Positions 7,261 to 63,875 of a stretch of DNA of 64,000 nt are shown one piece after another. The DNA comes from a virus, in the IMG/VR virus record IMGVR_UViG_3300045988_175595, positions 101,597 through 165,596 of that record. One strand, given 5' to 3'. Made by a program: the position numbers and the translations under genes. A model generated the notes under the pieces. The model saw nothing but the letters and a program-made list of their open reading frames with translations. It had not been told where the DNA came from and ran no database searches. The first letter of the stretch is position 1; every line of letters begins with the position of its first letter.

Positions 7261-8382
7261 TTAATTTGCTTTAAAATTATAAATTGGTTTAATTATTTTT
7301 ACAATATCAACTGTATCTTTAATATTGTTTATAATTTCTTCTGAAGGTTTATATGCACCTTTAGATTCGTCTATTGTTGCATTATTACAAGTTGAACTAA
7401 AAATATTATTTTCTTTCATTGCATTAATATCATCTTCAACTTTTAACAATTCTTTAGCTTTAGAACGGCTCAAGATTCTACCTGCACCATGAGGAGCAGA
7501 ATAATTCCAATCTGGATTTCCTTTTCCTATAGCTATTATGCTACCATCTATTCTATTTAATGGTATTATTACTTTTTCTCCTTTTTTTGCAGATATAGCT
7601 CCTTTTCTTAATATTTTATTAGCTAAATCTATATAGTTATGAATTGTTGTAAAATGACTTTCTTCTTCCCAATTCATTTTATTGATTATAGTATCTGCAA
7701 TAGCCTCTCTATTAAATTGAGCATAAGCTTGTGCTATACCCATATCGTAAAGATAATTTTTTAAATTATCTCCTTGTAAATAGCATAAGGCTTTTGGAAC
7801 TTTATTTATTTTCGGATCATCATTTATTTCTTTAATAGCTAAATTTTGATAATATTCAGCTATTTGTTTTCCTAAACAACTTGATCCAGAATGTATAACT
7901 AAATATATATTATTTTCTGAATCTTTGTTCATTTCTATAAAATGATTTCCTCTACCTAATACACCTATAGATTTTTTTGCTATGTCTATATTTATATTAG
8001 ATTTACATTTTAATAGAGATAAATCTACATATTTATTATATGGATGTTCTTTATCTCTTATATTGGTTCCGTTAGGGATATATTGTTTTATACATTCATC
8101 TACTTTCTGTAAATCAATGTCCTCTAGTTTTTGTTTTAATTTTACTACAAACATTCCACAACCTATATCACTTCCAACTAAATTAGGAGTAACTTTGTCA
8201 TCGATTGTCATTGTAGTTCCTATTGTACACCCCGCGCCTGCATGTGTGTCTGGCATAATCTTTATAACAGAATTTTTATATGCCTCTTGATTACACAATT
8301 CAATAATTTGTGATATTGCCTCTTGGTCTATATCAAATGTATAAACTAAAGCAGTATTATATTGTCCTTGTAAAGGTATCAT
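7261..8382 (-). CDS. rtcB: RNA 3'-phosphate/5'-OH ligase RtcB (compact 373-aa form)
   Basis: Motifs MPDTHAGAGCTIGTT, GRGNHFIE and HSGS match the RtcB metal- and GTP-binding signatures. Confidence 0.8.
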   Translation of the reverse strand: MIPLQGQYNTALVYTFDIDQEAISQIIELCNQEAYKNSVIKIMPDTHAGAGCTIGTTMTIDDKVTPNLVGSDIGCGMFVVKLKQKLEDIDLQKVDECIKQYIPNGTNIRDKEHPYNKYVDLSLLKCKSNINIDIAKKSIGVLGRGNHFIEMNKDSENNIYLVIHSGSSCLGKQIAEYYQNLAIKEINDDPKINKVPKALCYLQGDNLKNYLYDMGIAQAYAQFNREAIADTIINKMNWEEESHFTTIHNYIDLANKILRKGAISAKKGEKVIIPLNRIDGSIIAIGKGNPDWNYSAPHGAGRILSRSKAKELLKVEDDINAMKENNIFSSTCNNATIDESKGAYKPSEEIINNIKDTVDIVKIIKPIYNFKAN

Positions 8383-8424
8383 TTAATAACACCTCTTTCT
8401 ATTTTTTATTTCATTTATAAGCTA

Positions 8425-8715
8425 TTAAAGAGTAACATCTTTCATTACTTCTCTAAATAATTTTATTTTCTTTTGAAAAACATCTAATTTATATAATTCT
8501 CCACCATAGCTAGTAGATGAAGTAATCATAAATTCTTGAGAACGTGGCCTATATATTAAATTAATTCCTTCTTGAATTACAATTTCTTCATATACGCCAT
8601 TTTTATCATATTTTTTTCTTGATAATTTTCCTAATGTAACATCATTATCAATAAATTTTGCTTTAATTACCTTAAGGTAACTTCGCCATTCTGATTCATT
8701 ATTTATACTTATCAT
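8425..8715 (-). CDS. Hypothetical protein
   Basis: 96-aa ORF in the track with no recognisable motif. Confidence 0.4.
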   Translation of the reverse strand: MISINNESEWRSYLKVIKAKFIDNDVTLGKLSRKKYDKNGVYEEIVIQEGINLIYRPRSQEFMITSSTSYGGELYKLDVFQKKIKLFREVMKDVTL

Positions 8716-8856
8716 AAATAACTTCTCCTTAAGTAAATATTAAAACTATATTAAAATTTACTTTATATATTTTATTATTATTTTTATTATATATTAATCT
8801 TATTTTTTGCAATTTAATAATACGCTATGATTATCTTTTATTGCTATATTATATTG

Positions 8857-8888
8857 TAAACAAGGATTAAGTATCCTCAAGTTTATCC
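8857..8888. promoter_or_regulatory. Copy a of a conserved ~35-bp dyad promoter/operator-like element (minus-strand AAACTTGAGG-N19-AATATAAT)
   Basis: Plus-strand sequence taaacaaggattaagtatcctcaagtttatcc. On the minus strand TTGAGG is followed 19 bp later by AATATAAT. Confidence 0.4.
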
Positions 8889-8977
8889 AAAAAATTTATT
8901 TTTAAATTCAATTAAGTTTATAATCCTTGTTACACTATGAACTTAGATTATTTATATATTATTTTTTATTAGCTATT

Positions 8978-9016
8978 AAACTTGAATTAAGGAATTAGTT
9001 CCCCTCAAGTTTAATC
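8978..9016. promoter_or_regulatory. Copy b of the same dyad element
   Basis: Plus-strand sequence aaacttgaattaaggaattagttcccctcaagtttaatc. Confidence 0.35.
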
Positions 9017-9168
9017 ATATAAAACCTATAAAGTAATTTTAATTATTTTCATTATTGTCTAAAAAATCTTGATATTTTATTTTTAATTTATCAATATCAA
9101 AATTTTCTAATATATTTATCATTGTGTCAATTTCTTTTTCTTCTTGATGCAAAAATAATTCTATTATA

Positions 9169-9531
9169 TTATAATCCATGAGTTGTTTGTTCTATTTTTC
9201 CTGTTGTAGGATTTCTAGAAAAAGTGTCTCCATATAAATTTGTAAATTCAACCATATCATTAGTAATTAATGGTCCTGACGGAAAATCTCCTGGACCTTC
9301 TATTGGAAAAATATTTGGACCAAATACTCTTTCCTTTGATTCTAATTTTGCTACTCTTATTTCTAATTCTTCGATCTTTTTTTTTAAATGTTCTATTATA
9401 GAACTTTGATCTTCTTTTTTATTCTTTTTTTCTTTAAATTTGATTGATTGATAACATATTGTATTATCTCTACAATCAAAACACATACCTTTACATCTTA
9501 TTCCTTGGTTATATTGTTCTTCGGAAATCAT
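9169..9531 (-). CDS. Hypothetical Cys-containing protein
   Basis: 120-aa ORF with CKGMCFDCRDNTIC near the N-terminus. Confidence 0.4.
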   Translation of the reverse strand: MISEEQYNQGIRCKGMCFDCRDNTICYQSIKFKEKKNKKEDQSSIIEHLKKKIEELEIRVAKLESKERVFGPNIFPIEGPGDFPSGPLITNDMVEFTNLYGDTFSRNPTTGKIEQTTHGL

Positions 9532-9890
9532 TTTTGTCTCCTATTTTGCCAAGTTCTAAAATTTTGGATTTTAGATAATAAATCTTTTGCTTTTCCATCA
9601 AAACAAATAGTTCTATCATCAATATTTAATAAAGCTGGCTGTTTTTCTTTACAAACATTATCAACAACTATATTATATTTATCTAGCCATTGTTTAATAG
9701 CTTGTATACCTTCTTCTGTAGAACATCTTGAAGATACAATTACTACAGAATAGCCTGCATTTCTTATTTCTTCTATTGCTTCTTGTATACCTTCTACTGG
9801 CGGATCAGGTATATTTGTAATTCCCTTCCAACCAGAAGTATAACTATGAATAACTCCATCAAAGTCAAATTGAATTATTTTTTGTGCCAT
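9528..9890 (-). CDS. Small HAD-superfamily hydrolase/phosphatase
   Basis: HAD motif I FDFDGVIHSY near the N-terminus. It overlaps the upstream ORF by 4 nt. Confidence 0.5.
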   Translation of the reverse strand: MAQKIIQFDFDGVIHSYTSGWKGITNIPDPPVEGIQEAIEEIRNAGYSVVIVSSRCSTEEGIQAIKQWLDKYNIVVDNVCKEKQPALLNIDDRTICFDGKAKDLLSKIQNFRTWQNRRQK

Positions 9891-10139: not shown

Positions 10140-10292
10140 TGAAAACTTATAAAAAGTTATAAAATAAACTTTTACGTTTCATTCTTGATTCAACGTGACC
10201 TATTTCACTATATAAGCTACTCTAGTTTGGTATATCACTCCACAAGCGTAAATTCCCGACTAACTATCGGTACATATCTATAATTGCTTTCA
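10140..10292 (-). ncRNA. Candidate TnpB-associated omega RNA (reRNA) / IS right end
   Basis: This segment is locally GC-richer than its surroundings (ttgattcaacgtgacctatttcactatataagctactctagtttggtatatcactccacaagcgtaaattcccgactaactatcggtac). It is placed where TnpB guide RNAs are normally encoded. Confidence 0.4.
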
Positions 10293-11465
10293 TTATGCTA
10301 CATTATAGATTGCTGAATCTTTTAAATTTAATGATGCTTGATAATCTCTATCTATTATATTTCCACATTCTGGACAAATATAAATTCTATCACTAAGTTT
10401 CAAATCTTTTTTAATAGAACCACATTCATGACATAACTTGCTTGAAGGGAAATATCTATCAACAATTCTTAATTCTATATTATTCCATTTACACTTATAT
10501 TCTAATTGTCTGCGAAATTCATATAATTTCTGTTGTTGAATAGCTTTAGATATATGCTTATTTTTTATCATACCACTTATATTTAAATCTTCTATTGTAA
10601 TAAACATTGGTTTTCTGTTTACTATTTCAGAAGTTACTTCATGTAAATAATTATCTCTAATGTTAGTTAGTCTATGATTTAATTTTAAAAGTCTTTTTTC
10701 ACTTTTTACAATATTACTTGTTTTGCAGTAACTATCTCCTTTCTTATTTATTAGATATTTTTTAGATATCTTACGTTGTAACCTACGTTTTCTTTTCTCT
10801 AATTTTCTTATCCTTTGTGTTTTATTTATATTATTATAAATATTTCCATCAGAACATATTGCTAAATCTTTAACACCTAAATCTATTCCTATTCCTTCAT
10901 TTGTAGGTATTTCTATATTATCTTCATATTCAATACCAACACATATAAACCAATTAACTCCGTCATAAACCACATGAGGATTTATATATTTACAATTAGT
11001 AGGTATTTTATTCTTTTCTGATAATTTAACCCAATTTAATTTAGCTTTATTTTTCTTTTTACTTGTTGCAATATTCTCTAATTTAACATGAGTATCAGTA
11101 AATTTAATTTTTATATTATCTACATAAAAACTAGGTCTGTCTAACTTTTTTGATTTAAATTTAGGAAATTTAGATTGTCCTTTAAAGAATCTTTTATAAC
11201 TCATACAAGCATCTTTAATAGCCTGTTTAGTTACATTATTACTTATAGAATATAGCCACTTATATTCTTCTTGTTTTTTTAATTTAGTAAATTCTTTTCT
11301 TAACTCATAGTCAGAAATAAATTTACCACCATTTTTATAATTTTCTTGTTGTCTAGCTATTGTCCAATTATAAGCAAATCTTTTTACTCCACAAAACTGA
11401 AACATCTTTGTCTGTTGTTTATTATTAGGCTTTAACTTAATCTTTAATGTTTTTATCATCCTCAA
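10293..11465 (-). CDS. tnpB: TnpB (IS605 OrfB-family RuvC-like nuclease with C-terminal zinc finger)
   Basis: GIDLGVKDLAICSDG RuvC-I-like motif and CHECGS...CPECG zinc finger. Confidence 0.75.
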   Translation of the reverse strand: MRMIKTLKIKLKPNNKQQTKMFQFCGVKRFAYNWTIARQQENYKNGGKFISDYELRKEFTKLKKQEEYKWLYSISNNVTKQAIKDACMSYKRFFKGQSKFPKFKSKKLDRPSFYVDNIKIKFTDTHVKLENIATSKKKNKAKLNWVKLSEKNKIPTNCKYINPHVVYDGVNWFICVGIEYEDNIEIPTNEGIGIDLGVKDLAICSDGNIYNNINKTQRIRKLEKRKRRLQRKISKKYLINKKGDSYCKTSNIVKSEKRLLKLNHRLTNIRDNYLHEVTSEIVNRKPMFITIEDLNISGMIKNKHISKAIQQQKLYEFRRQLEYKCKWNNIELRIVDRYFPSSKLCHECGSIKKDLKLSDRIYICPECGNIIDRDYQASLNLKDSAIYNVA

Positions 11466-11907
11466 TCAACTCCTTTACCATTTTTCTAGTTTTATTCGCA
11501 CGTTTTCCTTGTAATTTACAACTAAACACAGTAATTATTTGAACTAAATCTTCCACTAATTCTTGTTGCTCTGATTTTTTAGTGGTATCAACTATTTCTA
11601 TTTCACAATTATAAAGACTTGCTATATATTCAACTAACTCAAATCCAAATCTTAATAATCTATCTTTATATAATACGACTATTTTTTCTACTTTATTTTG
11701 AGTTATTAATCTAATTAATTGTCTCAATCCTTTCTTTTTATAATTAATACCACTACCTATATCTGATATTATTTCAAAGGGTTTACCTTGTGACAATAAA
11801 TACATTCTCATATTTTCAATTTGTCTTTCTAAGTCATCTTTTTGTTTATGAGAACTAACTCTACAATATCCTATTATTTTTTTATCTAATATTGGATTTA
11901 AATTCAT
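11437..11907 (-). CDS. tnpA: IS607-type serine recombinase TnpA
   Basis: The resolvase catalytic region YCRVSSHKQKDDLERQ, with a 156-aa length, is typical of IS607 TnpA. Confidence 0.7.
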   Translation of the reverse strand: MNLNPILDKKIIGYCRVSSHKQKDDLERQIENMRMYLLSQGKPFEIISDIGSGINYKKKGLRQLIRLITQNKVEKIVVLYKDRLLRFGFELVEYIASLYNCEIEIVDTTKKSEQQELVEDLVQIITVFSCKLQGKRANKTRKMVKELIEDDKNIKD

Positions 11908-24804: not shown

Positions 24805-25251
24805 TTAAAAGCAAAATTTATGCACAAAAAATTTACAATCTTCATATAAACTATTTAATCCTTCTTTTGCTACTTGCTCTATAATATCTTTTTGGCTATT
24901 TATTGTGTTTTCTTTAGCAAAACAATCTGTAAATGTATCAAATTTTTTTATATAATTTACTAATTGTTTATTACTTACTAAATAAATATACCATAAATAT
25001 TTATAATATGCAGTTAAATATTTTAAAGAAAATATTTGATTATTAACTTTAAAATCTATTAGTTTATATTCATTCTTGTATTGCCAGTGTTTTGCTTGTT
25101 TAAAATTTTCTGGATGTAAAATTTTTTGATTATACAAAAATTTTTTTAATAATTGATATCTATCTTCTATAGATATATTATTTATTTTTGCATATAAGGC
25201 TGAAAACCTTTTATCTCCCTTACTACTACATTCTAAATTCATAATTGTCAC
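24805..25251 (-). CDS. Hypothetical protein
   Basis: 148-aa ORF. Confidence 0.4.
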   Translation of the reverse strand: MTIMNLECSSKGDKRFSALYAKINNISIEDRYQLLKKFLYNQKILHPENFKQAKHWQYKNEYKLIDFKVNNQIFSLKYLTAYYKYLWYIYLVSNKQLVNYIKKFDTFTDCFAKENTINSQKDIIEQVAKEGLNSLYEDCKFFVHKFCF

Positions 25252-28478: not shown

Positions 28479-29009
28479 TTATTGTCTTTTTTCTTCTTCT
28501 CTATCTTTCATTTCTTCTTCAAAAATTTCAGTTATATCTTTAAAATTCTTATTTAATAACTTCATTTTTTCTAAGTCTTCAAGAGCTTCTTCTTTTGTTA
28601 TTCTTTCTTCATCTACAAAAACTGAATACAATACTGCTACTCCACATTTATATCCTTGTTCAAATGTGCTTTTATTATAAAGTCTCATTCTTTTTACATC
28701 TTTAGGAACTTCATCTTTATCTTTGTCTAAAATACCTATACATACAGCTGTTAAACTATCAGGTTCTAATTCTGTTTTACCTGCATCTCTAACTGTATAT
28801 TTTGGATATTTATTAGCATATTCTTCTAGTTTATTTTGTGGACAATCTAATACTATTTTAGTTTGATTACTTTCCATATGTTTGCTAATTAATTCTTTAT
28901 CTTCACAATTATAAAGATAAGATTCAATAGCATGTCCCACTTGACCTGCTACTTTACCTGAAGACATTTTTAAATCTCCATTAACAAGTATATACATTGC
29001 TAAATTCAT
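28479..29009 (-). CDS. Peptidyl-tRNA hydrolase, PTH2 family
   Basis: YILVNGDLKMSSGKVAGQVGHA and RDAGKTELEPDSLTAV match the conserved PTH2 motifs. Confidence 0.65.
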   Translation of the reverse strand: MNLAMYILVNGDLKMSSGKVAGQVGHAIESYLYNCEDKELISKHMESNQTKIVLDCPQNKLEEYANKYPKYTVRDAGKTELEPDSLTAVCIGILDKDKDEVPKDVKRMRLYNKSTFEQGYKCGVAVLYSVFVDEERITKEEALEDLEKMKLLNKNFKDITEIFEEEMKDREEEKRQ

Positions 29010-29293: not shown

Positions 29294-29905
29294 TTATACA
29301 TATAGATTGTTTTCTTTTATATAATTAAATGTAGAATTAGCTATTAAATCTTCACATTGATCTTCATAGAATTGATCAATTCTATTTCTTACTTTAGTAG
29401 AAGATATTTCATTAGCTATTATATTAGTAACTATAATCTTATCTTTATATTTACTTAACAGCTTAGAATTATCTACTATTTCTACTAAATTATCATCATT
29501 TCTATTGAAAACCATTACATTATAGCTCTGTAAAAGCTCTTCTCCATTATACCAGTTTTCTATATCAGCTAAAACATCTAAACCTATTACTGGTATAATT
29601 TCTAAGCATAACACTCTACTTAAAAAGTCTAACAATCCTTTTAATGAAAAAGTTTCAAGATTAAAAAGACATGAAATATTAAGAACTTCAACTCCAGGAA
29701 TATTTAGATTTTTAATCATATTTATTCTGTGCTGAATGTCTACAAGTTCTGGTTTAATAGCTCTATAAAAGTTAGGCATTGGAGCTACAAATACTTTTTT
29801 AGCATCATAATCTTTTAATAAGCTATTAATAAGTAATTTATGACCTAAAGTTATAGGATTAAAACTACCATCATATAAATATATTGTTTTTCCCATTTTA
29901 ATCAC
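29294..29905 (-). CDS. Nicotinamide/nicotinate mononucleotide adenylyltransferase (NMNAT/NadD-like)
   Basis: YDGSFNPITLGHKLL (the (H/T)xGH motif) and ISSTKVR (the ISST motif). Confidence 0.7.
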   Translation of the reverse strand: MIKMGKTIYLYDGSFNPITLGHKLLINSLLKDYDAKKVFVAPMPNFYRAIKPELVDIQHRINMIKNLNIPGVEVLNISCLFNLETFSLKGLLDFLSRVLCLEIIPVIGLDVLADIENWYNGEELLQSYNVMVFNRNDDNLVEIVDNSKLLSKYKDKIIVTNIIANEISSTKVRNRIDQFYEDQCEDLIANSTFNYIKENNLYV

Positions 29906-35618: not shown

Positions 35619-36206
35619 TTATGCCTCTTTAACAAATTCCATAATTCTATTTAATTCTTTTTGTGTATCTACAATAACTAAACTTCTACCTGCATGTAAT
35701 TCATTACCATACCATTCTCCAGCCCAATTTATTGGTCTTATATAATATTTATTATCTGTTGTTTTTCCAAATAATAATTGAATATTATTATTGTTTGCTT
35801 GATATTCTTTTATTGATTCTGCTTTTTCCATAATTAATACATCTGTTAATAAATTATAAGCTGTTAATAAACCAGCTCTATCATCAAGTAGTATATTATA
35901 ATATACTTTTCTGCCATTTGGCATTCCTTCTACTCCTTCATTAACATAATCACATGGAATATTATTATTAATAATATAGCTCCATATTTCTTTGTATCTT
36001 TCTGGTTTACTAGCAGTAAAACAAATAAAAGTTGCTTTATCTTTCCATTGTCTTAATAGATTAATTACATCATTATAATTTCTATCTTTTTTATGAAAAT
36101 CATAAATAGTATCATCAAAATCGTAAGCTATAATAAGCTTACCATATTTTTTATACTCTTTATATAATCTATCAAGACAATTATTATAATTTAGATAATA
36201 ATCCAT
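35619..36206 (-). CDS. HAD-like hydrolase domain protein
   Basis: IIAYDFDDTIYDF DxDxT motif. Confidence 0.4.
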   Translation of the reverse strand: MDYYLNYNNCLDRLYKEYKKYGKLIIAYDFDDTIYDFHKKDRNYNDVINLLRQWKDKATFICFTASKPERYKEIWSYIINNNIPCDYVNEGVEGMPNGRKVYYNILLDDRAGLLTAYNLLTDVLIMEKAESIKEYQANNNNIQLLFGKTTDNKYYIRPINWAGEWYGNELHAGRSLVIVDTQKELNRIMEFVKEA

Positions 36207-36958
36207 TATTGATTAACTGATAATGGAATACAATAAGGCATTGGTAATAACTTATGCATATTTTCTTTATGCATTTTATCTATCTTATTCTTAACAGCTT
36301 GATCTTCACATACTCCTTCTCTGATATATTTATCAAGAACTTCGTATGAGAATCCTAACTTATCTTCATCTGTTTGTCCACAAAGACCATCTGTTGGTAC
36401 TTTGTTTATAAACTTATCTGGCAATCCTAATTCCTTGCCTAAAGCCTTAACTTCTTGAACTGTAAAATGAGATAATGGAGAAAAGTCTCCAGCTCCATCT
36501 CCGAACTTTGTTGCATATCCAACCCAGTCTTCTGAAAGATTACAAGTATTGGCAACTCTGCCGCCAACTATTCCGCTAATTCCATAAAGTGTTGACATTC
36601 TTATTCTTGCTGGTGTATTTATTGTAGCTACATCATTTATTTTTAAGCCTGTATGGCTAATTGTTTCAAATAAAGATTTAGTTGTATCACCTATATTTAC
36701 AGTATAAGCAGTAATTCCTAGATGCTTAACAAGATCTTTTGCATAATCAATGTCAGATTGTTCTCCATCTGGCATTAATACTCCTATTACTCTATCTTTT
36801 CCTAATGCTTTAACACATGCTGCCGCTACTGTTGTGCTATCTTTTCCTCCTGATAATCCTACAACAGCTTTTGTTTCATCTGATCCATTTCTTCTAAAAT
36901 ATACTTTTATCCATTCTATAAGATTATTTAATTGTTCTTTTGCATCAAATTTATACAT
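36206..36958 (-). CDS. nadE: NH3-dependent NAD+ synthetase NadE
   Basis: PP-loop VVGLSGGKDSTTVAAAC, 250 aa. Confidence 0.8.
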   Translation of the reverse strand: MYKFDAKEQLNNLIEWIKVYFRRNGSDETKAVVGLSGGKDSTTVAAACVKALGKDRVIGVLMPDGEQSDIDYAKDLVKHLGITAYTVNIGDTTKSLFETISHTGLKINDVATINTPARIRMSTLYGISGIVGGRVANTCNLSEDWVGYATKFGDGAGDFSPLSHFTVQEVKALGKELGLPDKFINKVPTDGLCGQTDEDKLGFSYEVLDKYIREGVCEDQAVKNKIDKMHKENMHKLLPMPYCIPLSVNQ

Positions 36959-37509: not shown

Positions 37510-38979
37510 TTAAAAATTGCCTCCATTTAATCTTTCTCTTATTGTTGATAAACTTTCTTCTTTTAATAGCTTACCATCTTTAAATACTGGTTTAAGCAAA
37601 TTATGTTGATCTTCATATGCTTTATTCCAACTATAACAATCAGCATATGTTATTTTGTCATTATCTAAATAAACAACACAACAGCCTTTTTGAGATTTTT
37701 TGAAACTGCCTTCTTTAGGATTTTTAAAAATTAGAGTTGGCTTATCATCCAACTCACAATAAGTTGCTTTGATACACATACTAAATGTATCTCTAGTAAA
37801 TGGTTTTAATACGCCATTTTCTTCTATTGCCTGCATTGAAAATGACCCTACTCCTAGAGCAACATTATTACAAGCAAATCCATTAGCTATTAAAATTTCA
37901 TAGATTTCTTTGCAGCGTTGTACAGTTATGCTATCTCCATATATAGCTTTAACATGCGGATCTAAAATTTTATAACCTTTACTATTTACTGTTCCTCCAA
38001 AGATATCCCATAATTTAAAGACTGTCTTTGTTACAACTTCAACGCAATCTCCGCTATCTCCGCGGACTAAAAAACAACCATTATGATTTAATATTTCTTC
38101 TTTTAATTGAGGTAGAACATTTTCTACAATGTTCCAGTAATCATAGCTATCTAACACAGCTGAAAAGCTTGTATTAGGATATATTTCTGTTAAAAGTCTT
38201 CTTAATAAAGTTATTTCATCGCCATCAGCAGAAAAGTTTGAACACATTACTGAATGTTCTGTTGATACTGCTCCTAATAATACTGGTTCTTTAGTACAGT
38301 CACAGTTGTAATTATCTTCTAGATAAATTATTGCTGGAACCGTTGCACTATTTAAGAATGATAGTGCCCAACCAGCTGAGCTCTTAATAGCTGACTGTAG
38401 GCATTCTTGCCCACGAAAACTAAAATCTCCTAAAGCTTTAGATCTAGGTATATCATCATCTACAGAAATATCATAATACTTGTTTACAATATCTCTATAT
38501 GTGCTTCCTACAGTTGCTGAGATCATTGGATGCCATATTTCAGCCGATATAAGTGATTCTAATGCTTGAGGTAACCATGCAAAATCTGGATGTGTATTTG
38601 TAATACAAAACATAGGAACATGTATTGGCACTTTAGTTCCTTCTGGAAGCGATAAAACTTCAATAGGTAAGTAACCTAATTCATGAAGTTTTCTAATTTT
38701 TTCGCTTGAATAAGCTCCTTTTCCAAGACTTGCAGATAAAACTCTATCATATTCATTTACTACTTCTTCTAAATCTTTCTTAAAGAAATATTCAGTGAAA
38801 TAGTCAATGAGATATGTTTTAATAAACCCTTGCAAACCAAACATGACTACTTTTGGCCACATATCTACTCTACTCATTCTTGGAGTAAAATAACTAGCAC
38901 TTTTTGTTATATTTTTTGGTAGCATATCGCTATGACATGCTTTATAAAAATCTATTAATAACATTGGATTTGTTTTCAT
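37510..38979 (-). CDS. Nicotinamide phosphoribosyltransferase family protein (NAMPT/NadV-like, or NARP1 Namat-like)
   Basis: 489 aa with the N-terminal DFYKxxH pattern (LIDFYKACHSD) typical of the NAMPT/PBEF family. Confidence 0.6.
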   Translation of the reverse strand: MKTNPMLLIDFYKACHSDMLPKNITKSASYFTPRMSRVDMWPKVVMFGLQGFIKTYLIDYFTEYFFKKDLEEVVNEYDRVLSASLGKGAYSSEKIRKLHELGYLPIEVLSLPEGTKVPIHVPMFCITNTHPDFAWLPQALESLISAEIWHPMISATVGSTYRDIVNKYYDISVDDDIPRSKALGDFSFRGQECLQSAIKSSAGWALSFLNSATVPAIIYLEDNYNCDCTKEPVLLGAVSTEHSVMCSNFSADGDEITLLRRLLTEIYPNTSFSAVLDSYDYWNIVENVLPQLKEEILNHNGCFLVRGDSGDCVEVVTKTVFKLWDIFGGTVNSKGYKILDPHVKAIYGDSITVQRCKEIYEILIANGFACNNVALGVGSFSMQAIEENGVLKPFTRDTFSMCIKATYCELDDKPTLIFKNPKEGSFKKSQKGCCVVYLDNDKITYADCYSWNKAYEDQHNLLKPVFKDGKLLKEESLSTIRERLNGGNF

Positions 38980-39717: not shown

Positions 39718-40530
39718 TTATAATGTAATATCAGTTATTTTACTATGCTGATCATGTCTTAAACTGTTAGTTGTATATATGTGATCAACATAATCAGTTT
39801 TAAGTAAATCACCAGCATGTATATTGTCTTCACAATGAGAACAATAAAAAATAACTGATTTTGCTCCCAATTCTTTAAGTTTTTTTGCAGCAAATAATGT
39901 AGTATAACCTTTAACGCATAGATCATCTACAATAAGTATATTTTTATCTTTTACAATATAATCACCTATTATATCATAATCTGTAATTCTGCCATCATCA
40001 AGATCTCGGTGCTTATTACCCCAGAACTTTGGCAAATCTATTGCTGAAAGTACTTCTGAGTATTTTTTATACGCTCCTACATCTGGCATAAATATTGCAT
40101 CTATATTATTTGCTTTTTCTCTTTCATCATCTATAACTTGTCTAACATAATAAGTTAAATCAAGTTGAATTATTCTTTCTAATGCTCCAACTGATACATT
40201 AGAATGAGGATCTAATACAAATATTTTAGAGAAGTTTAAGCTATTAATAAGCTGTGCAAAATATTTGCATGTAAACATCTGATTATATGTTTCTCTATCC
40301 ATTCTTTCATATGGAATATAATACATATATAGATTAACTTGTGTATTGGTTGGATATTTTTCGTCTATATATTTCTTAAGAAATATTAGATTCATTATAT
40401 CTATTGAATTATCATAAAATAATTCAATTTTTATATCATTATCACAATTTACTGATAATGGTGCGATTTTTATTTCATTGTTTGGAAATAATGAATATTT
40501 TATTTCAACATAATTATTTACTTTAATCAT
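39718..40530 (-). CDS. Ribose-phosphate pyrophosphokinase (PRPP synthetase) family protein, possible ADP-ribose pyrophosphokinase (Adps-like)
   Basis: FVLDPHS (DLHA-like) region and DDLCVKGYTTLFAAKKLKELGAKSV resembling the PRPP-binding loop. Confidence 0.55.
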   Translation of the reverse strand: MIKVNNYVEIKYSLFPNNEIKIAPLSVNCDNDIKIELFYDNSIDIMNLIFLKKYIDEKYPTNTQVNLYMYYIPYERMDRETYNQMFTCKYFAQLINSLNFSKIFVLDPHSNVSVGALERIIQLDLTYYVRQVIDDEREKANNIDAIFMPDVGAYKKYSEVLSAIDLPKFWGNKHRDLDDGRITDYDIIGDYIVKDKNILIVDDLCVKGYTTLFAAKKLKELGAKSVIFYCSHCEDNIHAGDLLKTDYVDHIYTTNSLRHDQHSKITDITL

Positions 40531-40542
40531 TTTTTGTTCTCC

Positions 40543-41163
40543 TTATATTATTTCAATTTGATTACTTTTCATAGCTATTAAAGCAGCTTTATGATTTTCT
40601 GGTGTTGTTCCTGCGCAACACTCTGAATCTACTATTATTTTTGCTTCTGGTAAATTAGCTTTTAAACCAATAGCATTTGAAAGTACGCAAATATCTGTAC
40701 ATAATCCTACTATTTCAATTTGTACATCTTTTCCCATTTCTAATTGAGTTTGAATATTTTCGTCATCCATGAAAAAATCATCATTTTGTTTTGTCAAATA
40801 ATCACAGAATAGATCATCCCATAAATTAATACTTCCAAATGTAGGCTTTTCATACTTTGTAATTCTACCTTCTAAATTAGAAAATAAAGGTACATTTTGT
40901 AATTCTTTTTGAACCTCTTCTTGTAACTTCCAGCCATCTGTATCTTTTATACAGTGTTTTATTGGTAAATTTTTTCCTTCTTGAGTTTCAAGATAATTAT
41001 CAAAATGTGTATCTTGAGTAATAAGAATTTCAGCATTTTCATCTTCTTTGTATTTTTTAATTTTTTCAATAACTTTAGGTACAATAGCTTGTGCCTCTTT
41101 TGTTCCTAATGCTCCATTTATGAAGTCTTTTTGCATGTCTACTACTATTAAATATTTTTGCAT
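40543..41163 (-). CDS. Isochorismatase-family hydrolase, likely nicotinamidase PncA
   Basis: LIVVDMQKDF, a catalytic-Cys region GLCTDICV, and a length of 206 aa. Confidence 0.6.
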   Translation of the reverse strand: MQKYLIVVDMQKDFINGALGTKEAQAIVPKVIEKIKKYKEDENAEILITQDTHFDNYLETQEGKNLPIKHCIKDTDGWKLQEEVQKELQNVPLFSNLEGRITKYEKPTFGSINLWDDLFCDYLTKQNDDFFMDDENIQTQLEMGKDVQIEIVGLCTDICVLSNAIGLKANLPEAKIIVDSECCAGTTPENHKAALIAMKSNQIEII

Positions 41164-58865: not shown

Positions 58866-61800
58866 TTATTTAGGCATTACTATTCCATCCATTAATATTC
58901 TATTTAATTCATCTTGTTTACTTTCTTCTTTAGTTTCTTCTACTTTTAAAGTATTTTGAGGCATAGCAATACCATCTAATAAAATATTACTATTTGGTGT
59001 TTCTTGATCTTTATCTATAGCAACTTCTCTTTCTACAGATGTAGGCATAACAATACCATCCATTAATATATTATTAATATTATTATTGTTAACTGGAGTA
59101 GAAGATAGAGAAATATTATTTGTAGGCATATTTATTCCATCCATTAATATACTATTTATCTTTTCTTTGTTTTCTTTAATAACTGATGCTTGTTCTGCTG
59201 CTATATCATATAGTCCATCAGCGTTAAGATACATACAAGTTGATTTTTCAGAAACAAAGAAATTAATTGTTGCTGTTTTAAAATCTATACTATCTAAAAC
59301 GTTTGCAACATAGCTATTAATAGCTAGATTACACACTTTAAATTCTGCACCTGTAGAAGTTACTGCCATTATTACATTGTAATCAGATTTACCAGTGTAA
59401 ATATTTTGATCTGCTTTAATATATTTATATTCTACTATTGTAGCATTTCTTAATTCTTGAGAAACACCTTGTTTAGTTATTGGAAGATAAACTCCTTTAT
59501 TATAATTAGAAGTTGAAACTTTTCTTTCAGTTTCTACAAAGTATTTACCATTGCCATCTGTAATAACAACACCATCATCAAAAGTAGCTTTCTTATTATC
59601 AAAAGTAATAAATTCATTATCTTCAGTTATTCCATGTCCTTTATTAGCTGATACATGTTTACCTAATAAATCAGGAAGATAAACAACTTTCTTATTATCA
59701 TCTATAGCACAAATGATTCTTTCAGCGGCAACTATATTTAATCCTTCTGATTTTAAGAATGCAACTAATTCTTTTTCAAATATAGTTATTAAATTAGTAT
59801 TAACTGTAGCACAAGATTCAATATCTTTTTCATAGCTATCAATACTATAGCATACAATAGCTCTTCCTATTTCTTCTGGAGTTAATACAGTTTCAGCTGA
59901 TAATAATGATAATTCAGCATAGTTTCTACAAACTTCTAAGATAGTTGTTTTTAAATATTTCTTAGTTGTTATCTCTTGTTCTTCATCTTTATCTTTTATA
60001 TTGATACAAGTTAATTCTTTAAGAGTTTCGTTTATATTTATATTCATTCTCATAATAGTTCTTAATAACTTATCAATATTAAATTTAGAAGTTTTATCTT
60101 TATCTCCTACGTTTATGTCATCTTCTTGAGTTTTTATCTTTTGTCTTAATTCATTTGATTCTGCACTTTTTATTTGAATTTCTAATTCTTTTGCTACCAT
60201 AACAATAGCTAAGTTCGCATAATCAACTAATTCATTTCTTATTGCTCCTAATGGATCAACAATACAAGGAATCTTTTCTTGATTATATTCAAACATAAAT
60301 TCTTCTTCTGTCATTTCATCAGTTACTAAGAATTCTCCAGTTGCAGAAGCAGCTAATTTATTTTTTAATAATGGTAAATTAAAGAAATTAGTTTTAGTGT
60401 ATTCTCCTTCTATTATTTCATTTAGTATTTCTACATTTTCTTCAAATAACATATCATTTGTTTCTTTCTCTTCATAAATATCTAATGGAGCTGTTAACAT
60501 GTTCTTATATGAACCACAAGCTCTGATTACATCTTTTAAGTTAAACATATCAACAACCTTGTACATGTTTTTAGCTGCATCAATAGAAGTTTCTCCTGGA
60601 TATCTATTACAATATAAAGTATCTTCTAAGAAAGCTATAGTTTCTTGTAATGTTCCATTTCCTTCTTTGTATCTTAACATAACTTCTTCACACATTCTCT
60701 TACTTAAAGTAACTTGAGTTCTAGTTTGTCCATTTCTTAATCTATAAGTTTTATATGATTTATCTGTTTTTACTGGAGAGATATAATCTTTAGTGTGTTC
60801 AACTCCAAAGAACATAGATATTGTTTTAACTATTTTATCTTTAACATTATCTGAAACATTTGGAGATATTAATGCTAAATATAATAATGCATTATTATAG
60901 AATCCAGTAGATATAAAACCTATAGGAGCAACTGGATTTAAGAAGTAATCTAATATTAATCTACCAGTATTTTCAAATGTTATACTATAGTTTCCATCAA
61001 AATCTTTAACACAAGAACTTTGACTGTTTTGAGCATCAACTTTCATATTATTTTTACCTATATTAGATTTCTTACTAATACCAAAAGCGGCTTTCTTCTT
61101 ATTAACAGCTGACTCTTCTTTCTTTATTACAGATTTATTACATCTACCAAATGAAGTTGCAAAACCAGATAAGAATTTAGCAATACTTAAAGAGTTTAAT
61201 GATTCATAGTGACTAATATCTCCTTCATCTGGATCGTTTTCATCTAATGATCTATCAACAATAGTACCAAAATCAGTAATTTGAGATAATATATCAACTA
61301 CTTGTTTATCTTTAAATATTTGCATAGAGTCTATATCAAAGTCAGCTCCATCATGTTTTTCCATGAAATAGTGACAAGCTGGAATTAATATAAATCCATC
61401 CATATCTAATACATAATCAGTTAAGAACTTCTTAGCATTATTAGTTAAATTCATCCTTTGTATTCTATCTAATAATTCTTCTGTACCTACAACTTTAAAA
61501 GTAGTAACAGCTTTATGACCACTGATTGGATGTCTTGCTGCTGATACTTTTTCTATTTCTCCTGCAACTAATGAATGAGAATAACATTCACCATCATCTA
61601 ATAATCTAGTACCAAATATAGGAGCTGGATCTGCTTGAATAACAGTATAGTCTGCATCAACATCTACTCTTAACATATTTAATAAGTTACCAGTAGAAGT
61701 AACTATATTATTAAGAATTGATTTAACAACTCCAGGGAAATAAGCTAATATTTCTTTTGGTGATAATTTATATAACCAAGTTGCAGTTTGTTGATCATTA

Positions 61801-63875
61801 TTGTATCTAATAAATTTACTAGTATCAACATCTACTGATTCTATATTTGAACCATCGTCTGATAATTTAATATAGATACCTAATTCTTCGAATTTAGCCA
61901 TTATTGTTTTCTTAGCTCTTTCTAATAATAATTCTGTAGCTTGTTCTTCGTTTTGAATTAACATCATAAAGTTAATAACCATATTTAATCCTGTATTTGC
62001 TTCATGTGCTTTCTTTAAGCATACTAAATCAAATTCATTATCATGTTCTACTAACTTCATACAGTTTTCATCAAATACACCATCTAATTTACTCATAGCA
62101 TCATCAAGTTCTTCTTTAGATAATTCATTAATATCTAAATCTTCACCGTCTATTACTAATTTAGCTACAGATGCATTATTTTCTAATAAAGCTAAAGCTA
62201 ATGTTTCTAAGTTCTTTCTCTTTTGTATTTGAGATGAGTTCTTATTTCCGCCTCCTCTTGCTTGTAAACAAATACCTAATAATTCTTTATTAGATACTGA
62301 TAAGTTACATTGTTGTAAATATTCTAATACCATTTCAACAGATATGAAACAAGTACCATCTTTTGTATTGCTACAATCAATAACATTTGCATTTTCATTT
62401 TGAGTATAAGGAGTAAAGTAATCGTTTTTATTGTATCCAGCTTTATGAGCTATATTATTAAATACAATATAGTTTCTTACTCTACCTATCTTTTTAGATG
62501 GAGTAGAAACCATCATAACTCTTGTCATAGCTTTGAATAATTTAACTAATGAATTATATTTAGCAAATTCAACAGTTCCATCTTCATTCTTTTTAGTTAC
62601 AAATGACATAGAAAATGCATTGTTTGAAGCTTTGTCTAATAATTCAATTCTTCTATCAACATTTGTTAATTCTGTATCTCCATGTTTAAAAGTATTAACA
62701 GCTGCTAATGAAATAGAACCTGTTCTTAATCCAGATGGAGTTACTCCTAATAATTGGTATTCAATTGCATATTCACCTTCTCTTACATAATTCTTTATTT
62801 CTGATCTTGTACAGAATACTGATCTAGATAATCCAGATTTCATTCTTATAATGAATATTCTAGTATCTTTTTGATGACAACCAATCATTATCTTGAATAA
62901 GTTTATTAATTTCTTCTTATTGTTTCTTAATTGTGTTCCCATAGATATACTACAAATTTCTTCTGTATATTTACCTTCAAGAGTCATAGCTTTATCAGCC
63001 ATTACACCTTCTTTTGTTTCACAAGCTCTTAATAATTCTGATTCTTGAAGAGGTTCAACCATTACTGCAACTCTTAATTCTTCTGTATTATAATCAGTCT
63101 TATAAGCTTCTAATTCTATTCTGTTCTTTAATACAACTTCCATTTCTTTAGTGAACATTTCAAAAGCTTTTTGTTTTATATAACTCTTAGTCTTTGAAAC
63201 AGTCATGAAATCAGCTATTAATTTTGCTTTAGCTTGTGAGTTTGGTAAATATTGAATTAAGAAGTTAAATTCTTTTATATCTAAGTCTGCTACTTTCTTA
63301 TTAGCTAATACTTGAGCTTTTAATGAATTAACAGCAAACTTTCTGATGTTTTTATTTCTCTTAGCTACTTCTTCTGCTGCAAAATGTTTCTTATCAAAAG
63401 CATCTTTAACTACTTTACTCATTGGAGCATATAAATCATAGTTTATTTCTTCATATACTGATTCCATGATTTCATCTTTAATTGTTTCTTTAGTTTCTTT
63501 TATCTCTTCTACTTTTACTCCTTTGTTGTAAGCTGCTACAGCTTTCTTAATATTTTTTACTACTATTTCTGCTTCTGTTATTGTATCTTTATTTTCATCT
63601 AAGATAGTTGGTATTATAACTTCATCTCTTATTACTTTTGTGATGTGTTTTGATCCTTCAGCTAATTCATTTACTCTTCTTACTACTACTTCCATATTTA
63701 ATCCCCCGTTTATTACTGTATTATTCATTTTTACTCCACCTTCCATTACTTCATTGTTTACTACTGTGTTATTGTTATTATTCATTGTATTTTCCCCCTT
63801 TAAAGTTGTGTTTACCATTTCATTGTTTTTTGTGTTCATCATTTTCTTTTCCTCCAATTTTTCATATATATACAA
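58866..63875 (-). CDS. Giant (1669 aa) protein with a beta-prime-like catalytic loop; candidate single-subunit multisubunit-type RNA polymerase (YonO-like or crAss-like two-barrel RNAP), with C-terminal tandem ILMDGIxMP repeats
   Basis: The motif HDGADFDIDSMQ (protein residues about 840-850, DNA about 61330-61365) resembles the universally conserved beta-prime NADFDGDQM Mg-binding loop and the DxDxD triad of crAss-like and YonO RNAPs. There are four C-terminal repeats of (N/R)IL(M/L)DGI(N/V/A)MP(T/Q/K). Confidence 0.45.
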   Translation of the reverse strand: MYIYEKLEEKKMMNTKNNEMVNTTLKGENTMNNNNNTVVNNEVMEGGVKMNNTVINGGLNMEVVVRRVNELAEGSKHITKVIRDEVIIPTILDENKDTITEAEIVVKNIKKAVAAYNKGVKVEEIKETKETIKDEIMESVYEEINYDLYAPMSKVVKDAFDKKHFAAEEVAKRNKNIRKFAVNSLKAQVLANKKVADLDIKEFNFLIQYLPNSQAKAKLIADFMTVSKTKSYIKQKAFEMFTKEMEVVLKNRIELEAYKTDYNTEELRVAVMVEPLQESELLRACETKEGVMADKAMTLEGKYTEEICSISMGTQLRNNKKKLINLFKIMIGCHQKDTRIFIIRMKSGLSRSVFCTRSEIKNYVREGEYAIEYQLLGVTPSGLRTGSISLAAVNTFKHGDTELTNVDRRIELLDKASNNAFSMSFVTKKNEDGTVEFAKYNSLVKLFKAMTRVMMVSTPSKKIGRVRNYIVFNNIAHKAGYNKNDYFTPYTQNENANVIDCSNTKDGTCFISVEMVLEYLQQCNLSVSNKELLGICLQARGGGNKNSSQIQKRKNLETLALALLENNASVAKLVIDGEDLDINELSKEELDDAMSKLDGVFDENCMKLVEHDNEFDLVCLKKAHEANTGLNMVINFMMLIQNEEQATELLLERAKKTIMAKFEELGIYIKLSDDGSNIESVDVDTSKFIRYNNDQQTATWLYKLSPKEILAYFPGVVKSILNNIVTSTGNLLNMLRVDVDADYTVIQADPAPIFGTRLLDDGECYSHSLVAGEIEKVSAARHPISGHKAVTTFKVVGTEELLDRIQRMNLTNNAKKFLTDYVLDMDGFILIPACHYFMEKHDGADFDIDSMQIFKDKQVVDILSQITDFGTIVDRSLDENDPDEGDISHYESLNSLSIAKFLSGFATSFGRCNKSVIKKEESAVNKKKAAFGISKKSNIGKNNMKVDAQNSQSSCVKDFDGNYSITFENTGRLILDYFLNPVAPIGFISTGFYNNALLYLALISPNVSDNVKDKIVKTISMFFGVEHTKDYISPVKTDKSYKTYRLRNGQTRTQVTLSKRMCEEVMLRYKEGNGTLQETIAFLEDTLYCNRYPGETSIDAAKNMYKVVDMFNLKDVIRACGSYKNMLTAPLDIYEEKETNDMLFEENVEILNEIIEGEYTKTNFFNLPLLKNKLAASATGEFLVTDEMTEEEFMFEYNQEKIPCIVDPLGAIRNELVDYANLAIVMVAKELEIQIKSAESNELRQKIKTQEDDINVGDKDKTSKFNIDKLLRTIMRMNININETLKELTCINIKDKDEEQEITTKKYLKTTILEVCRNYAELSLLSAETVLTPEEIGRAIVCYSIDSYEKDIESCATVNTNLITIFEKELVAFLKSEGLNIVAAERIICAIDDNKKVVYLPDLLGKHVSANKGHGITEDNEFITFDNKKATFDDGVVITDGNGKYFVETERKVSTSNYNKGVYLPITKQGVSQELRNATIVEYKYIKADQNIYTGKSDYNVIMAVTSTGAEFKVCNLAINSYVANVLDSIDFKTATINFFVSEKSTCMYLNADGLYDIAAEQASVIKENKEKINSILMDGINMPTNNISLSSTPVNNNNINNILMDGIVMPTSVEREVAIDKDQETPNSNILLDGIAMPQNTLKVEETKEESKQDELNRILMDGIVMPK

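What the first reader, a model, noticed from the sequence alone, without database searches (positions are those of the whole stretch)
7261..8382. Compact phage RtcB immediately downstream of the tRNA island
The 373-aa RtcB has intact metal/GTP motifs (MPDTHAGAGCTIGTT, GRGNHFIE). It is shorter than typical bacterial RtcB, which is about 400-480 aa. Its placement next to the tRNAs and the Ro/Y-RNA-like pair suggests it reseals tRNAs cut by host anticodon nucleases, or splices the permuted tRNA-like elements. A small HAD phosphatase (9528-9890) lies nearby.
Basis: partly seen in the sequence, partly recalled or inferred. Interest (0 to 1): 0.5.

Follow-up and report, generated by a model that had tools for sequence, protein, structure and literature searches.

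The report
Phage RtcB RNA ligase beside tRNAs
A large gut phage carries an ordinary-sized, catalytically complete RtcB RNA-repair ligase next to its tRNA genes and a Ro-like protein, most likely to reseal tRNAs cut by bacterial defences; the only unusual feature is a moved RNA-gripping arginine.

Summary
The ORF is real: 7261-8382 on the minus strand, 373 aa, RtcB (Pfam 8.9e-61; PHROG 1075 8.5e-130; predicted fold TM 0.8 to human and archaeal RtcB). All metal ligands, the guanylylated histidine and the GMP contacts are present.

Compactness is not special. About a third of its 120 nearest relatives are 380 aa or shorter. The residues missing relative to E. coli or Pyrococcus are scattered loops, not a domain.

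RtcB lies transcriptionally upstream of the tRNA array, not downstream. A conserved TTGACA/TATACT promoter sits between them. RtcB followed by a tRNA-Tyr-led array is kept in the two nearest lineages (73% and 62% identity), one of them also with the Ro-like gene.

The neighbouring DUF2828/vWA protein folds like Ro60 and is followed by a sub-threshold YrlA-like RNA. The block is therefore a phage version of the bacterial rsr-Y RNA-rtcB repair operon merged with a tRNA island. This is a known kind.

One real oddity: the near-universal arginine that clamps the 5'-OH strand (E. coli R189) is Ser here and Gly in the nearest relative. Both have a rare Arg two residues before the catalytic Asn-His.

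tRNA resealing is plausible but untested. Splicing of permuted tRNA-like elements has no support.

The parts
7261..8382 (-). RtcB 3'-phosphate/5'-OH RNA ligase CDS, 373 aa. Key residues: D72, C75, N146, H147, H164, H248, H298 (guanylylation site), R302, R306, K345. Deviant residues: S168, R144, I134.
8390..8396 (-). Shine-Dalgarno-like AGAGGTG, 7 nt before the RtcB ATG
   Evidence: read directly from the sequence
8425..8715 (-). 96-aa ORF of unknown function immediately upstream of RtcB. It is kept next to RtcB in the same-phage assemblies L001, L002 and L004. No family hit.
9102..9130 (-). Promoter-like site TTGACA-17-GAAAAT upstream of orf96-rtcB (consensus match only)
7200..7228 (-). Sigma-70-type promoter TTGACA-17-TATACT between the RtcB stop codon and tRNA-Tyr. 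TTGACA and the -10 element are conserved in L086 and L088.
3401..7165 (-). tRNA array of 17 ARAGORN tRNAs led by tRNA-Tyr(gta), plus Rfam-only tRNA-like hits at 4848-4915, 5090-5181 and 4773-4831
1536..3092 (-). Ro60-like protein: DUF2828 helical ring domain plus DUF7788/vWA domain
   Evidence: Pfam; PHROG 850; AF2 pLDDT 86.6; Foldseek Ro60 1yvr E 1.2e-8 and Rsr 2nvo
960..1069 (-). YrlA-like (bacterial Y RNA-like) RNA with T-arm, acceptor-like hairpin and D-arm. 36.4 bits, below the gathering score of 69.
720..810 (-). Second tRNA-like element with the same order (T-arm GTAGGTTAGATTCCTAC, hairpin, D-arm-like). Weak.
621..699 (-). tRNA-Cys(gca), last gene of the co-directional block
580..611 (-). 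Intrinsic-terminator-like hairpin (14-bp stem plus T-run) closing the block
9528..9890 (-). 120-aa minimal HAD phosphatase-like protein (DFDGV motif). Relation to RtcB is uncertain.

Best explanation
The gene encodes a functional GTP- and Mn2+-dependent RtcB ligase. [quoted passage not shown]

It belongs to the accessory region of a roughly 245-kb, 25%-GC phage from the human gut, probably infecting a clostridial host. It heads a co-directional block (about 580-9130, minus strand) made of RtcB, a promoter, a tRNA array of about 20 genes, a Ro60-like protein, one or two YrlA-like tRNA mimics, tRNA-Cys and a terminator.

The most likely role (inferred, not shown) is counter-defence for translation, in three layers. 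The phage replaces tRNAs with its array. It reseals tRNAs cut in the anticodon loop by metal-independent host ribonucleases, which leave exactly RtcB's substrates. It uses the Ro-like/Y-RNA particle to handle, scaffold or decoy damaged tRNA. This is the phage counterpart of the Salmonella rsr-yrlBA-rtcBA operon.

The enzyme's 5'-OH-strand grip is remodelled. The usual clamp arginine (E. coli R189, P. horikoshii R238) is Ser168. An Arg has appeared at position 144, whose backbone in P. horikoshii RtcB touches the same phosphate. I infer that the arginine has been relocated and ligation retained.
For: Shown:
- Family membership and fold.
- Every metal, GMP and histidine residue aligns with E. 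coli and P. horikoshii RtcB (residue roles from PMC8051266).
- Purifying selection, dN/dS 0.27-0.34.
- Identical CDS in four independent assemblies.
- Conserved synteny: RtcB, promoter, then a tRNA-Tyr-led array in L086 (73% identity, followed by a DUF2828 gene) and in L088 (62% identity).
- L035 (49% identity) has RtcB at the end of an array of 15 or more tRNAs that contains a 39%-identical Ro-like gene.
- Ro60 fold of the 1536-3092 protein and a YrlA-like RNA downstream.
- Surrounding genes are counter-defence or host-takeover types: NAD salvage, NADAR, PTH2.

From the literature:
- The Salmonella operon responds to tRNA halves ending in cyclic phosphate (PMC7790460).
- Jumbo phages pair tRNAs with RtcB or Rnl ligases and sometimes a TROVE protein (PMC7824862).

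Arginine relocation:
- Position 168 is Arg in 119 of 122 nearest homologues and in 80 of 80 viral RtcBs. It is non-Arg only in the query and in P0002.
- Those two alone among these sets have Arg144.
- The Ser200 backbone and the Arg238 side chain of P. horikoshii RtcB bind the same phosphate.
Against: - No experiment links any phage RtcB to tRNA repair.
- Only 11 of 80 viral RtcB loci have any tRNA within 10 kb. tRNA adjacency is lineage-specific, not a general property of phage RtcB.
- The tRNA array has its own promoter, so co-regulation is not shown.
- R189A in E. coli slows the sealing step 200-fold. If Arg144 does not compensate, this enzyme may seal poorly.
- About 20 cellular RtcBs have Arg144 and still keep the clamp arginine, so Arg144 is not in itself a sign of compensation.
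- RtcA, Archease and RtcR were not found among the 54 window ORFs scanned against Pfam.
- The YrlA hit is below Rfam's gathering score.
Confidence: 0.6

Rival explanations
1. General RNA repair or quality control rather than tRNA resealing. RtcB together with the Ro-like/Y-RNA particle would repair or triage rRNA and mRNA cut by host toxins (MazF-type, colicin-type) or damaged during infection. tRNA adjacency would only reflect a shared 'translation maintenance' island.
For: RtcB substrates in bacteria are not settled, and Rsr/Y RNA act with PNPase in structured-RNA decay. The tRNA array has its own promoter. Most viral RtcB loci lack nearby tRNAs. PTH2 elsewhere in the window suggests broader care of translation.
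Against: RtcB sits directly against tRNA arrays in several unrelated phage lineages. There is no PrfH partner, and the PrfH-type RtcB model scores 111.5 against a cutoff of 271.8.
Confidence: 0.2
2. The loss of the clamp arginine changes the chemistry. The enzyme would mainly hydrolyse cyclic phosphates and guanylylate 3'-phosphate ends (RNAppG capping), or would join only a special 5'-OH partner, rather than act as a general sealing ligase.
For: E. coli R189A slows sealing 200-fold but slows RNAppG formation only 3-fold (PMC8051266). S168 or G168 is unique to this clade among about 220 RtcBs examined. The family-conserved R134 (P. horikoshii R190, another 5'-OH strand contact) is also lost in the query.
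Against: Arg144 lies where the backbone already touches the same phosphate. The gene is under purifying selection. R302, R306, K310, R259 and K260 are retained. The 134 position varies in distant active RtcBs; E. coli has Asn there.
Confidence: 0.1
3. Maturation of phage RNAs. RtcB would join ends made by self-cleaving ribozymes, or splice or circularise the tRNA-like and Y-like RNAs of the island.
For: A pistol ribozyme (63.6 bits, above its gathering score) sits inside the tRNA array next to RtcB in L035. A skipping-rope RNA sits in the L088 array. Two conserved non-tRNA elements lie in the window's array.
Against: No ribozyme family scored at E<=1 in window 1-9300. No tRNA introns or split tRNAs were reported. 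The YrlA topology needs no ligation.
Confidence: 0.07
4. DNA-end transactions. RtcB would cap or join DNA 3'-phosphate ends during phage replication or after host nuclease attack.
For: E. coli RtcB ligates 5'-OH DNA and caps DNA 3'-phosphate ends in vitro.
Against: The context is entirely RNA: tRNAs, a Ro-like protein and a Y-like RNA. No DNA-repair partner is adjacent.
Confidence: 0.03

Closest known systems
Phage 'tRNA splicing ligase' RtcB family (PHROG 1075), e.g. Bacillus phages BCP8-2, Janet and CAM003, plus Listeria phages and mycobacteriophages
   Same: Full-length match (E 8.5e-130). 50-53% identity to Bacillus phage proteins of about 394 aa. Same catalytic residues. 699 phage records carry a homologue.
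   Different: This clade alone replaces the HSGS-R clamp arginine and carries Arg144. It is tied to a tRNA-Tyr-led array and a Ro-like gene, whereas most family members in IMG/VR have no nearby tRNA.
Salmonella Typhimurium rsr-yrlBA-rtcBA RNA repair operon
   Same: A Ro-type ring protein, tRNA-mimic Y RNA(s) and RtcB on one strand. That operon is linked to tRNA halves ending in cyclic phosphate.
   Different: No RtcA or RtcR was found here. The Ro-like protein is a DUF2828/vWA form recognisable as Ro60 only by fold. A tRNA array of about 20 genes lies between RtcB and the Ro-like gene. The setting is a phage.
E. coli RtcB (408 aa) and P. horikoshii RtcB (481 aa), the characterised enzymes
   Same: 32% identity to E. 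coli RtcB. Predicted fold TM 0.78-0.80 normalised to the query. D/C/H/H/H metal ligands, guanylylated His and Asn-His all conserved.
   Different: 35 aa shorter than E. coli and 108 aa shorter than P. horikoshii, through scattered loop and hairpin deletions and a shorter N-terminus. E. coli R189 / P. horikoshii R238 is Ser. P. horikoshii S200 is Arg. P. horikoshii R190 is Ile.
T4 Pnkp/Rnl1 repair of PrrC-cleaved tRNA-Lys (own knowledge; reviewed in PMC3400036, listed)
   Same: The proposed biological logic: a phage enzyme reverses anticodon-loop cleavage by a host defence nuclease.
   Different: Unrelated enzymes and chemistry. T4 uses heal-and-seal through 5'-P/3'-OH ends with ATP. RtcB joins 3'-P/5'-OH ends directly with GTP.

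Membership tests
RtcB (Pfam PF01139) | Profile match above the curated threshold over the whole domain | tested here: met
   206.8 bits against a cutoff of 27; residues 40-371 cover profile positions 15-425 of 426
RtcB (Pfam PF01139) | Binuclear metal site: Asp, bridging Cys and three His (E. coli D75, C78, H168, H185, H281) | tested here: met
   D72, C75, H147, H164 and H248 align and are invariant in 122 of 122 sequences. Residue roles from PMC8051266.
RtcB (Pfam PF01139) | Histidine that forms the covalent GMP adduct (E. coli H337, P. horikoshii H404) | tested here: met
   H298 in SAPHGAGR, with R302 and R306
RtcB (Pfam PF01139) | Arginine clamping the 5'-OH strand phosphates (E. coli R189, P. 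horikoshii R238) | tested here: not met
   Ser168 (codon AGT). Arg in 119 of 122 homologues and in 80 of 80 viral RtcBs. This residue aids sealing; it does not define the family.
RtcB (Pfam PF01139) | RtcB fold | tested here: met
   AF2 pLDDT 93.3. Foldseek against 8odp and 4dwq: E 8e-25 to 1e-23, TM normalised to the query 0.78-0.80.
RtcB (Pfam PF01139) | GTP/Mn2+-dependent 3'-P/5'-OH ligation activity | not testable with these tools
   Needs biochemistry
PrfH-associated RtcB (NCBIfam TIGR03073 release_rtcB) | Score above the model cutoff and an adjacent prfH gene | tested here: not met
   111.5 bits against a cutoff of 271.8. No release-factor-like neighbour.
NCBIfam PRK09588 short RtcB equivalog | Score above the equivalog cutoff | tested here: not met
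   146.5 bits against a cutoff of 407. Related, but not this equivalog.
Rsr/Y RNA/RtcB repair operon | Ro60 (TROVE plus vWA) protein on the same strand | tested here: inconclusive
   No Pfam TROVE hit and no PDB sequence hit. The full-length fold matches Ro60 and Rsr: E 1e-8 to 2e-6, TM 0.44-0.57.
Rsr/Y RNA/RtcB repair operon | YrlA-type Y RNA within a few kb of the Ro gene on the same strand | tested here: inconclusive
   RF02553 hit at 960-1069(-), full model length, 36.4 bits, E 4e-5, below the gathering score of 69. It lies 470 nt downstream of the Ro-like gene.
Rsr/Y RNA/RtcB repair operon | RtcA cyclase and RtcR activator | tested here: not met
   None among the 54 window ORFs scanned against Pfam. 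Smaller ORFs were not all scanned.

The most novel reading that the evidence does not exclude
This small phage clade has rebuilt the 5'-OH-strand binding site of RtcB. Both P. horikoshii-type phosphate-clamp arginines are lost (R168 to S or G; R134 to I or K), and a rare Arg has been gained at 144, next to the catalytic Asn-His. This may have changed what the enzyme will join. It might act only on a particular broken tRNA loop or a Ro/Y-RNA-presented substrate, or it might stop at 3'-ppG capping. That would make it a specialised rather than a general RNA ligase.
Probability: 0.2. Interest if true: 0.5.

Novelty: new member of a known kind. Interest (0 to 1): 0.3.

Why it matters
Phage RtcBs are annotated in hundreds of genomes but, as far as my searches found, none has been tested. 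This one sits in a tidy module of ligase, spare tRNAs, a Ro-like ring protein and a tRNA mimic, in a gut jumbo phage that also carries NAD-salvage and other counter-defence genes. It would therefore be a reasonable model for asking whether phages repair, replace and decoy tRNAs at the same time. The natural loss of the conserved 5'-OH clamp arginine offers a ready-made test of how RtcB positions its nucleophile strand. Apart from that, the finding is ordinary.

Tried and rejected
1. Compactness as a distinct trimmed-domain form: rejected. The subfamily spans 365-453 aa. The 396-aa clostridial forms differ only by a roughly 23-aa helical insert after residue 186. Differences from E. coli are five short loops.
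2. PrfH-type ribosome-repair RtcB: rejected.
3. Intron, intein or split gene: none here. Some Bacillus phage homologues are split over about 2.1 kb.
4. Ribozymes or tRNA introns as substrates in the window: none found.
5. Strict covariation of Arg144 with loss of Arg168: only one direction holds. A degenerate DNA search for GRGNHFI[ED] gave 0 hits in IMG/VR. It gave 161 stretches in genomes and metagenomes. Most were chance matches in short ORFs. About 20 were true RtcBs, and all of them keep Arg168.
6. General enrichment of tRNAs near viral RtcB genes: weak, 11 of 80 loci.
7. Near-identical phage in the INPHARED collection: none. Only the IS607 element matches, at 76% to Enterocloster phage CB457P1.
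8. Sequence-level link of the DUF2828 protein to Ro60: none. Only the fold comparison worked.
9. Measuring the distance from Arg144 to the phosphate site: not possible, because model coordinates are not exposed.

Full report
**1. Observation**

The ORF at 7261..8382 is real, ATG-initiated and 373 aa long, but it lies on the minus strand. AGAGGTG sits 7 nt upstream of the start.

It matches several RtcB models:
- Pfam RtcB at 8.9e-61, one stretch spanning profile positions 15-425 of 426.
- PHROG 1075 'tRNA splicing ligase' at 8.5e-130, full length.
- NCBIfam short-RtcB models, below their equivalog cutoffs.

The exact protein occurs on seven contigs from human-gut metagenomes, the longest 245 kb. 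The CDS is 100% nucleotide-identical in four independent assemblies. Against its two nearest lineages dN/dS is 0.27-0.34. It is a real, selected gene.

**2. Catalytic residues**

I aligned the protein with E. coli RtcB (taken from MG1655) and with a family profile against P. horikoshii RtcB. The following residues correspond:

| Role | E. coli | P. horikoshii | This protein |
|---|---|---|---|
| Metal ligand | D75 | D95 | D72 |
| Bridging metal ligand | C78 | C98 | C75 |
| Contact to 5'-OH | N167 | N202 | N146 |
| Metal ligand | H168 | H203 | H147 |
| Metal ligand | H185 | H234 | H164 |
| Metal ligand | H281 | H329 | H248 |
| GMP adduct | H337 | H404 | H298 |
| Conserved basic | R341, R345 | not mapped | R302, R306 |

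Residue roles are from PMC8051266. All these residues are invariant in 122 of 122 nearest homologues and in 81 of 81 viral sequences.

**3. Compactness**

Compactness is not a distinguishing feature.
- Among the query, E. coli RtcB and the 120 best homologues, lengths run from 365 to 453 aa. The mode is 396 aa, and 39 sequences are 380 aa or shorter.
- The 396-aa clostridial chromosomal forms differ from the query by one helical insert of about 23 aa after residue 186.
- E. coli RtcB (408 aa) differs by five short loop insertions.
- P. horikoshii RtcB (481 aa) has a longer N-terminus and several insertions: about 30 aa before the GxGNHF motif, about 14 aa between NHFxE and HxGS, and about 33 aa before the C-terminal half.
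- The AF2 model (pLDDT 93.3, pTM 0.92) superposes on human and P. horikoshii RtcB with TM 0.78-0.80 normalised to the query and E down to 8e-25.

No domain has been removed. Surface elaborations are missing.

**4. An unexpected deviation in the 5'-OH strand site**

In P. horikoshii RtcB bound to a 5'-OH oligonucleotide, several groups hold the strand:
- The Ser200 backbone amide binds the first phosphate.
- Arg190 binds the second phosphate.

The E. coli equivalent of Arg238, R189, when changed to Ala slows sealing 200-fold but slows RNAppG formation only 3-fold (PMC8051266).

In the query these positions are Ser168 (codon AGT), Arg144 and Ile134. Their conservation elsewhere is as follows.
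- Position 168 is Arg in 119 of 122 nearest homologues and in 80 of 80 IMG/VR viral RtcBs. The exceptions are the query, its identical database entry P0001, and its nearest relative P0002 (73% identity), which has Gly.
- Those same sequences are the only ones in either set with Arg at 144, where Gly occupies 117 of 122.
- A degenerate DNA search for G-R-G-N-H-F-I-[E/D] found nothing in 2.9 million viral contigs.
- In cellular genomes and metagenomes it found about 20 true RtcBs with Arg144, and all of them retain the clamp arginine.

The most economical reading is that Arg144 arose first, as it has elsewhere, and made the old clamp dispensable. The old clamp then drifted to Ser or Gly. This is inference. 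I could not measure the geometry, and the two sequences share ancestry, so this may be a single evolutionary event. The alternative, weakened sealing or altered specificity, stays open.

**5. Context**

All tRNAs are on the same strand as RtcB: 18 from ARAGORN and up to three more tRNA-like hits from Rfam. RtcB is therefore upstream of the array in the direction of transcription.

The 96-nt spacer contains TTGACA-17-TATACT (11 of 12 consensus positions). This promoter-like site is conserved in L086 and L088.

Reading downstream from RtcB, the block contains:
- the tRNA array, 7165 to 3401;
- a 518-aa DUF2828/DUF7788 protein at 1536-3092;
- a YrlA-like RNA at 960-1069: full model length, 36.4 bits, E 4e-5, below the gathering score of 69;
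- a second T-arm/hairpin/D-arm element near 720-810;
- tRNA-Cys;
- a strong terminator-like hairpin at 580-611.

The DUF2828/DUF7788 protein shows no sequence similarity to any solved structure. Its AF2 model (pLDDT 86.6) nevertheless matches Ro60 and D. radiodurans Rsr over its full length (E 1e-8 to 2e-6, TM 0.44-0.57). PHROG 850 calls this family 'RNA-binding protein'.

The T-arm-before-D-arm order is the native topology of YrlA RNAs, which are encoded near Ro60 orthologues on the same strand in more than 250 bacteria and phages (PMC4201824). It implies no splicing.

**6. Conservation of the linkage**

- P0002's contig (L086) has RtcB, the same promoter, tRNA-Tyr 95 nt downstream, about eight tRNAs, and then a DUF2828/DUF7788 gene.
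- P0003's contigs (L087, L088; 62% identity) have ParA-ParB-orf45-RtcB, the promoter, then tRNA-Tyr, Asn, Ser, Ser and Thr. Their upstream genes (DUF1256, dCMP deaminase, NUDIX, AAA_28) match those of the window. This is the same phage lineage.
- L035 is a 124-kb viral contig whose RtcB is only 49% identical. It has RtcB at the end of an array of 15 or more tRNAs that encloses a 39%-identical Ro-like gene.
- In the wider sample only 11 of 80 viral RtcB loci have any tRNA within 10 kb. Eight of those place RtcB directly against or inside an array: L022-25, L028, L035 and L061.

The linkage therefore recurs and is conserved in this lineage, but it is not general for phage RtcB.

**7. Host and genome**

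- The window is 25.5% GC.
- It encodes an Amidase_3/choline-binding endolysin typical of Gram-positive hosts.
- The nearest RtcB and DUF2828 relatives are clostridial.
- An IS607-type element (TnpA, TnpB and a RAGATH-18 RNA) is 76% identical to one in Enterocloster phage CB457P1.
- The rest of the window is rich in counter-defence or takeover genes: Nampt, Nmnat-like, NadE, nicotinamidase-like, PRPP-synthetase-like, NADAR, PTH2, NUDIX.

**8. Mechanism**

Shown: the protein is an RtcB with a complete active site, next to a tRNA island and a Ro-like/Y-like pair.

Established knowledge: RtcB joins 2',3'>P or 3'-P ends to 5'-OH ends through His-GMP and RNAppG intermediates. Metal-independent ribonucleases, including anticodon nucleases, produce those ends. 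The Salmonella rsr-yrlBA-rtcBA operon is induced by tRNA 5' halves ending in cyclic phosphate. Jumbo phages are described as supplementing tRNAs with RtcB or Rnl ligases and occasionally a TROVE protein.

Inferred: the phage uses RtcB to reseal cleaved tRNAs, the array to replace them, and the Ro-like/Y-like particle to triage, scaffold or decoy. I put this at about 0.6.

Rivals:
- broader RNA repair, 0.2;
- altered chemistry after loss of the clamp arginine, 0.1;
- maturation of phage RNAs, 0.07;
- DNA-end chemistry, 0.03.

The maturation idea draws a hint from a pistol ribozyme inside the L035 array. In the window nothing supports it.

The nearby 120-aa HAD protein has only weak similarity to polynucleotide-phosphatase-type HADs. 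A 3'-phosphatase would destroy RtcB's substrate end, so I do not count it as a partner.

**9. Verdict**

This is a genuine and probably active phage RtcB of a known phage family, in a known kind of arrangement: an RNA-repair ligase with tRNAs and a Ro/Y RNA pair. The 'compact' angle is ordinary, and the 'splicing of permuted tRNA-like elements' angle is unsupported. The one feature worth a specialist's attention is the apparent relocation of the 5'-OH-strand arginine. Interest 0.3. Novelty: new member of a known kind.

Noticed in passing
window 10182-11907 (-): An IS607-type mobile element: serine-recombinase TnpA (11437-11907), TnpB (10293-11465) and a RAGATH-18 RNA (10182-10246, 69.2 bits). 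It is 76% identical over 1.8 kb to Enterocloster phage CB457P1 and lies between the HAD operon and upstream genes.
   Followed up: partly
window 960-1069 (-) and about 720-810 (-): Two tRNA-mimic elements (T-arm, hairpin, D-arm) downstream of the Ro-like gene. The first matches Rfam YrlA below threshold. A recurring 'AACAGCA' motif is scattered through 800-1510.
   Followed up: partly
window 4848-4915, 5090-5181, 4773-4831, 3480-3548 (-): tRNA-like hits seen only by Rfam, not by ARAGORN. They include a 92-nt match to the tRNA-Sec model (39.6 bits, below the gathering score of 47).
   Followed up: no
window 5624-5721 (-) and 6441-6632 (-): Two non-tRNA elements inside the tRNA array are conserved with L086: 84% over 98 nt, which is higher than the RtcB CDS, and 70% over 195 nt. 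The first shows apparent compensatory changes in a hairpin. No Rfam match.
   Followed up: partly
L035 9006-9068 (+); L088 8284-8362 (+): A pistol self-cleaving ribozyme (63.6 bits against a gathering score of 34.5) and a skipping-rope RNA (49.7 against 36.7) sit inside the tRNA arrays next to RtcB in related viral contigs. Pistol cleavage leaves 2',3'>P and 5'-OH ends, which are RtcB's substrates.
   Followed up: no
window 29294-29905, 36206-36958, 37510-38979, 39718-40530, 40543-41163 (-): A near-complete NAD+ salvage set: Nmnat-like cytidylyltransferase, NadE, Nampt, PRPP-synthetase-like and nicotinamidase-like genes. This suggests countering of NAD-depleting defences.
   Followed up: no
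window 24805-25251 and 28479-29009 (-): A DarT1-associated NADAR-like protein (a possible reverser of DNA ADP-ribosylation) and a PTH2 peptidyl-tRNA hydrolase. The latter is another tRNA and translation-rescue function.
   Followed up: no
window 58866-63875 (-): A 1669-aa ORF with no Pfam or PHROG hit.
   Followed up: no
phage records H1, H3, H5, H6, H29 (Bacillus phages BCP8-2, CM1, BMBsp2, JBP901, PHZU0001): RtcB homologues are split into two tblastn pieces spanning about 2.1 kb. This suggests an intron, intein or homing-endonuclease insertion in those phages.
   Followed up: no
window 5204-5279 (-): tRNA-Ile with anticodon TAT, alongside tRNA-Ile(gat). There are also tandem duplicates of tRNA-Asn(gtt) and two tRNA-Phe(gaa).
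   Followed up: no
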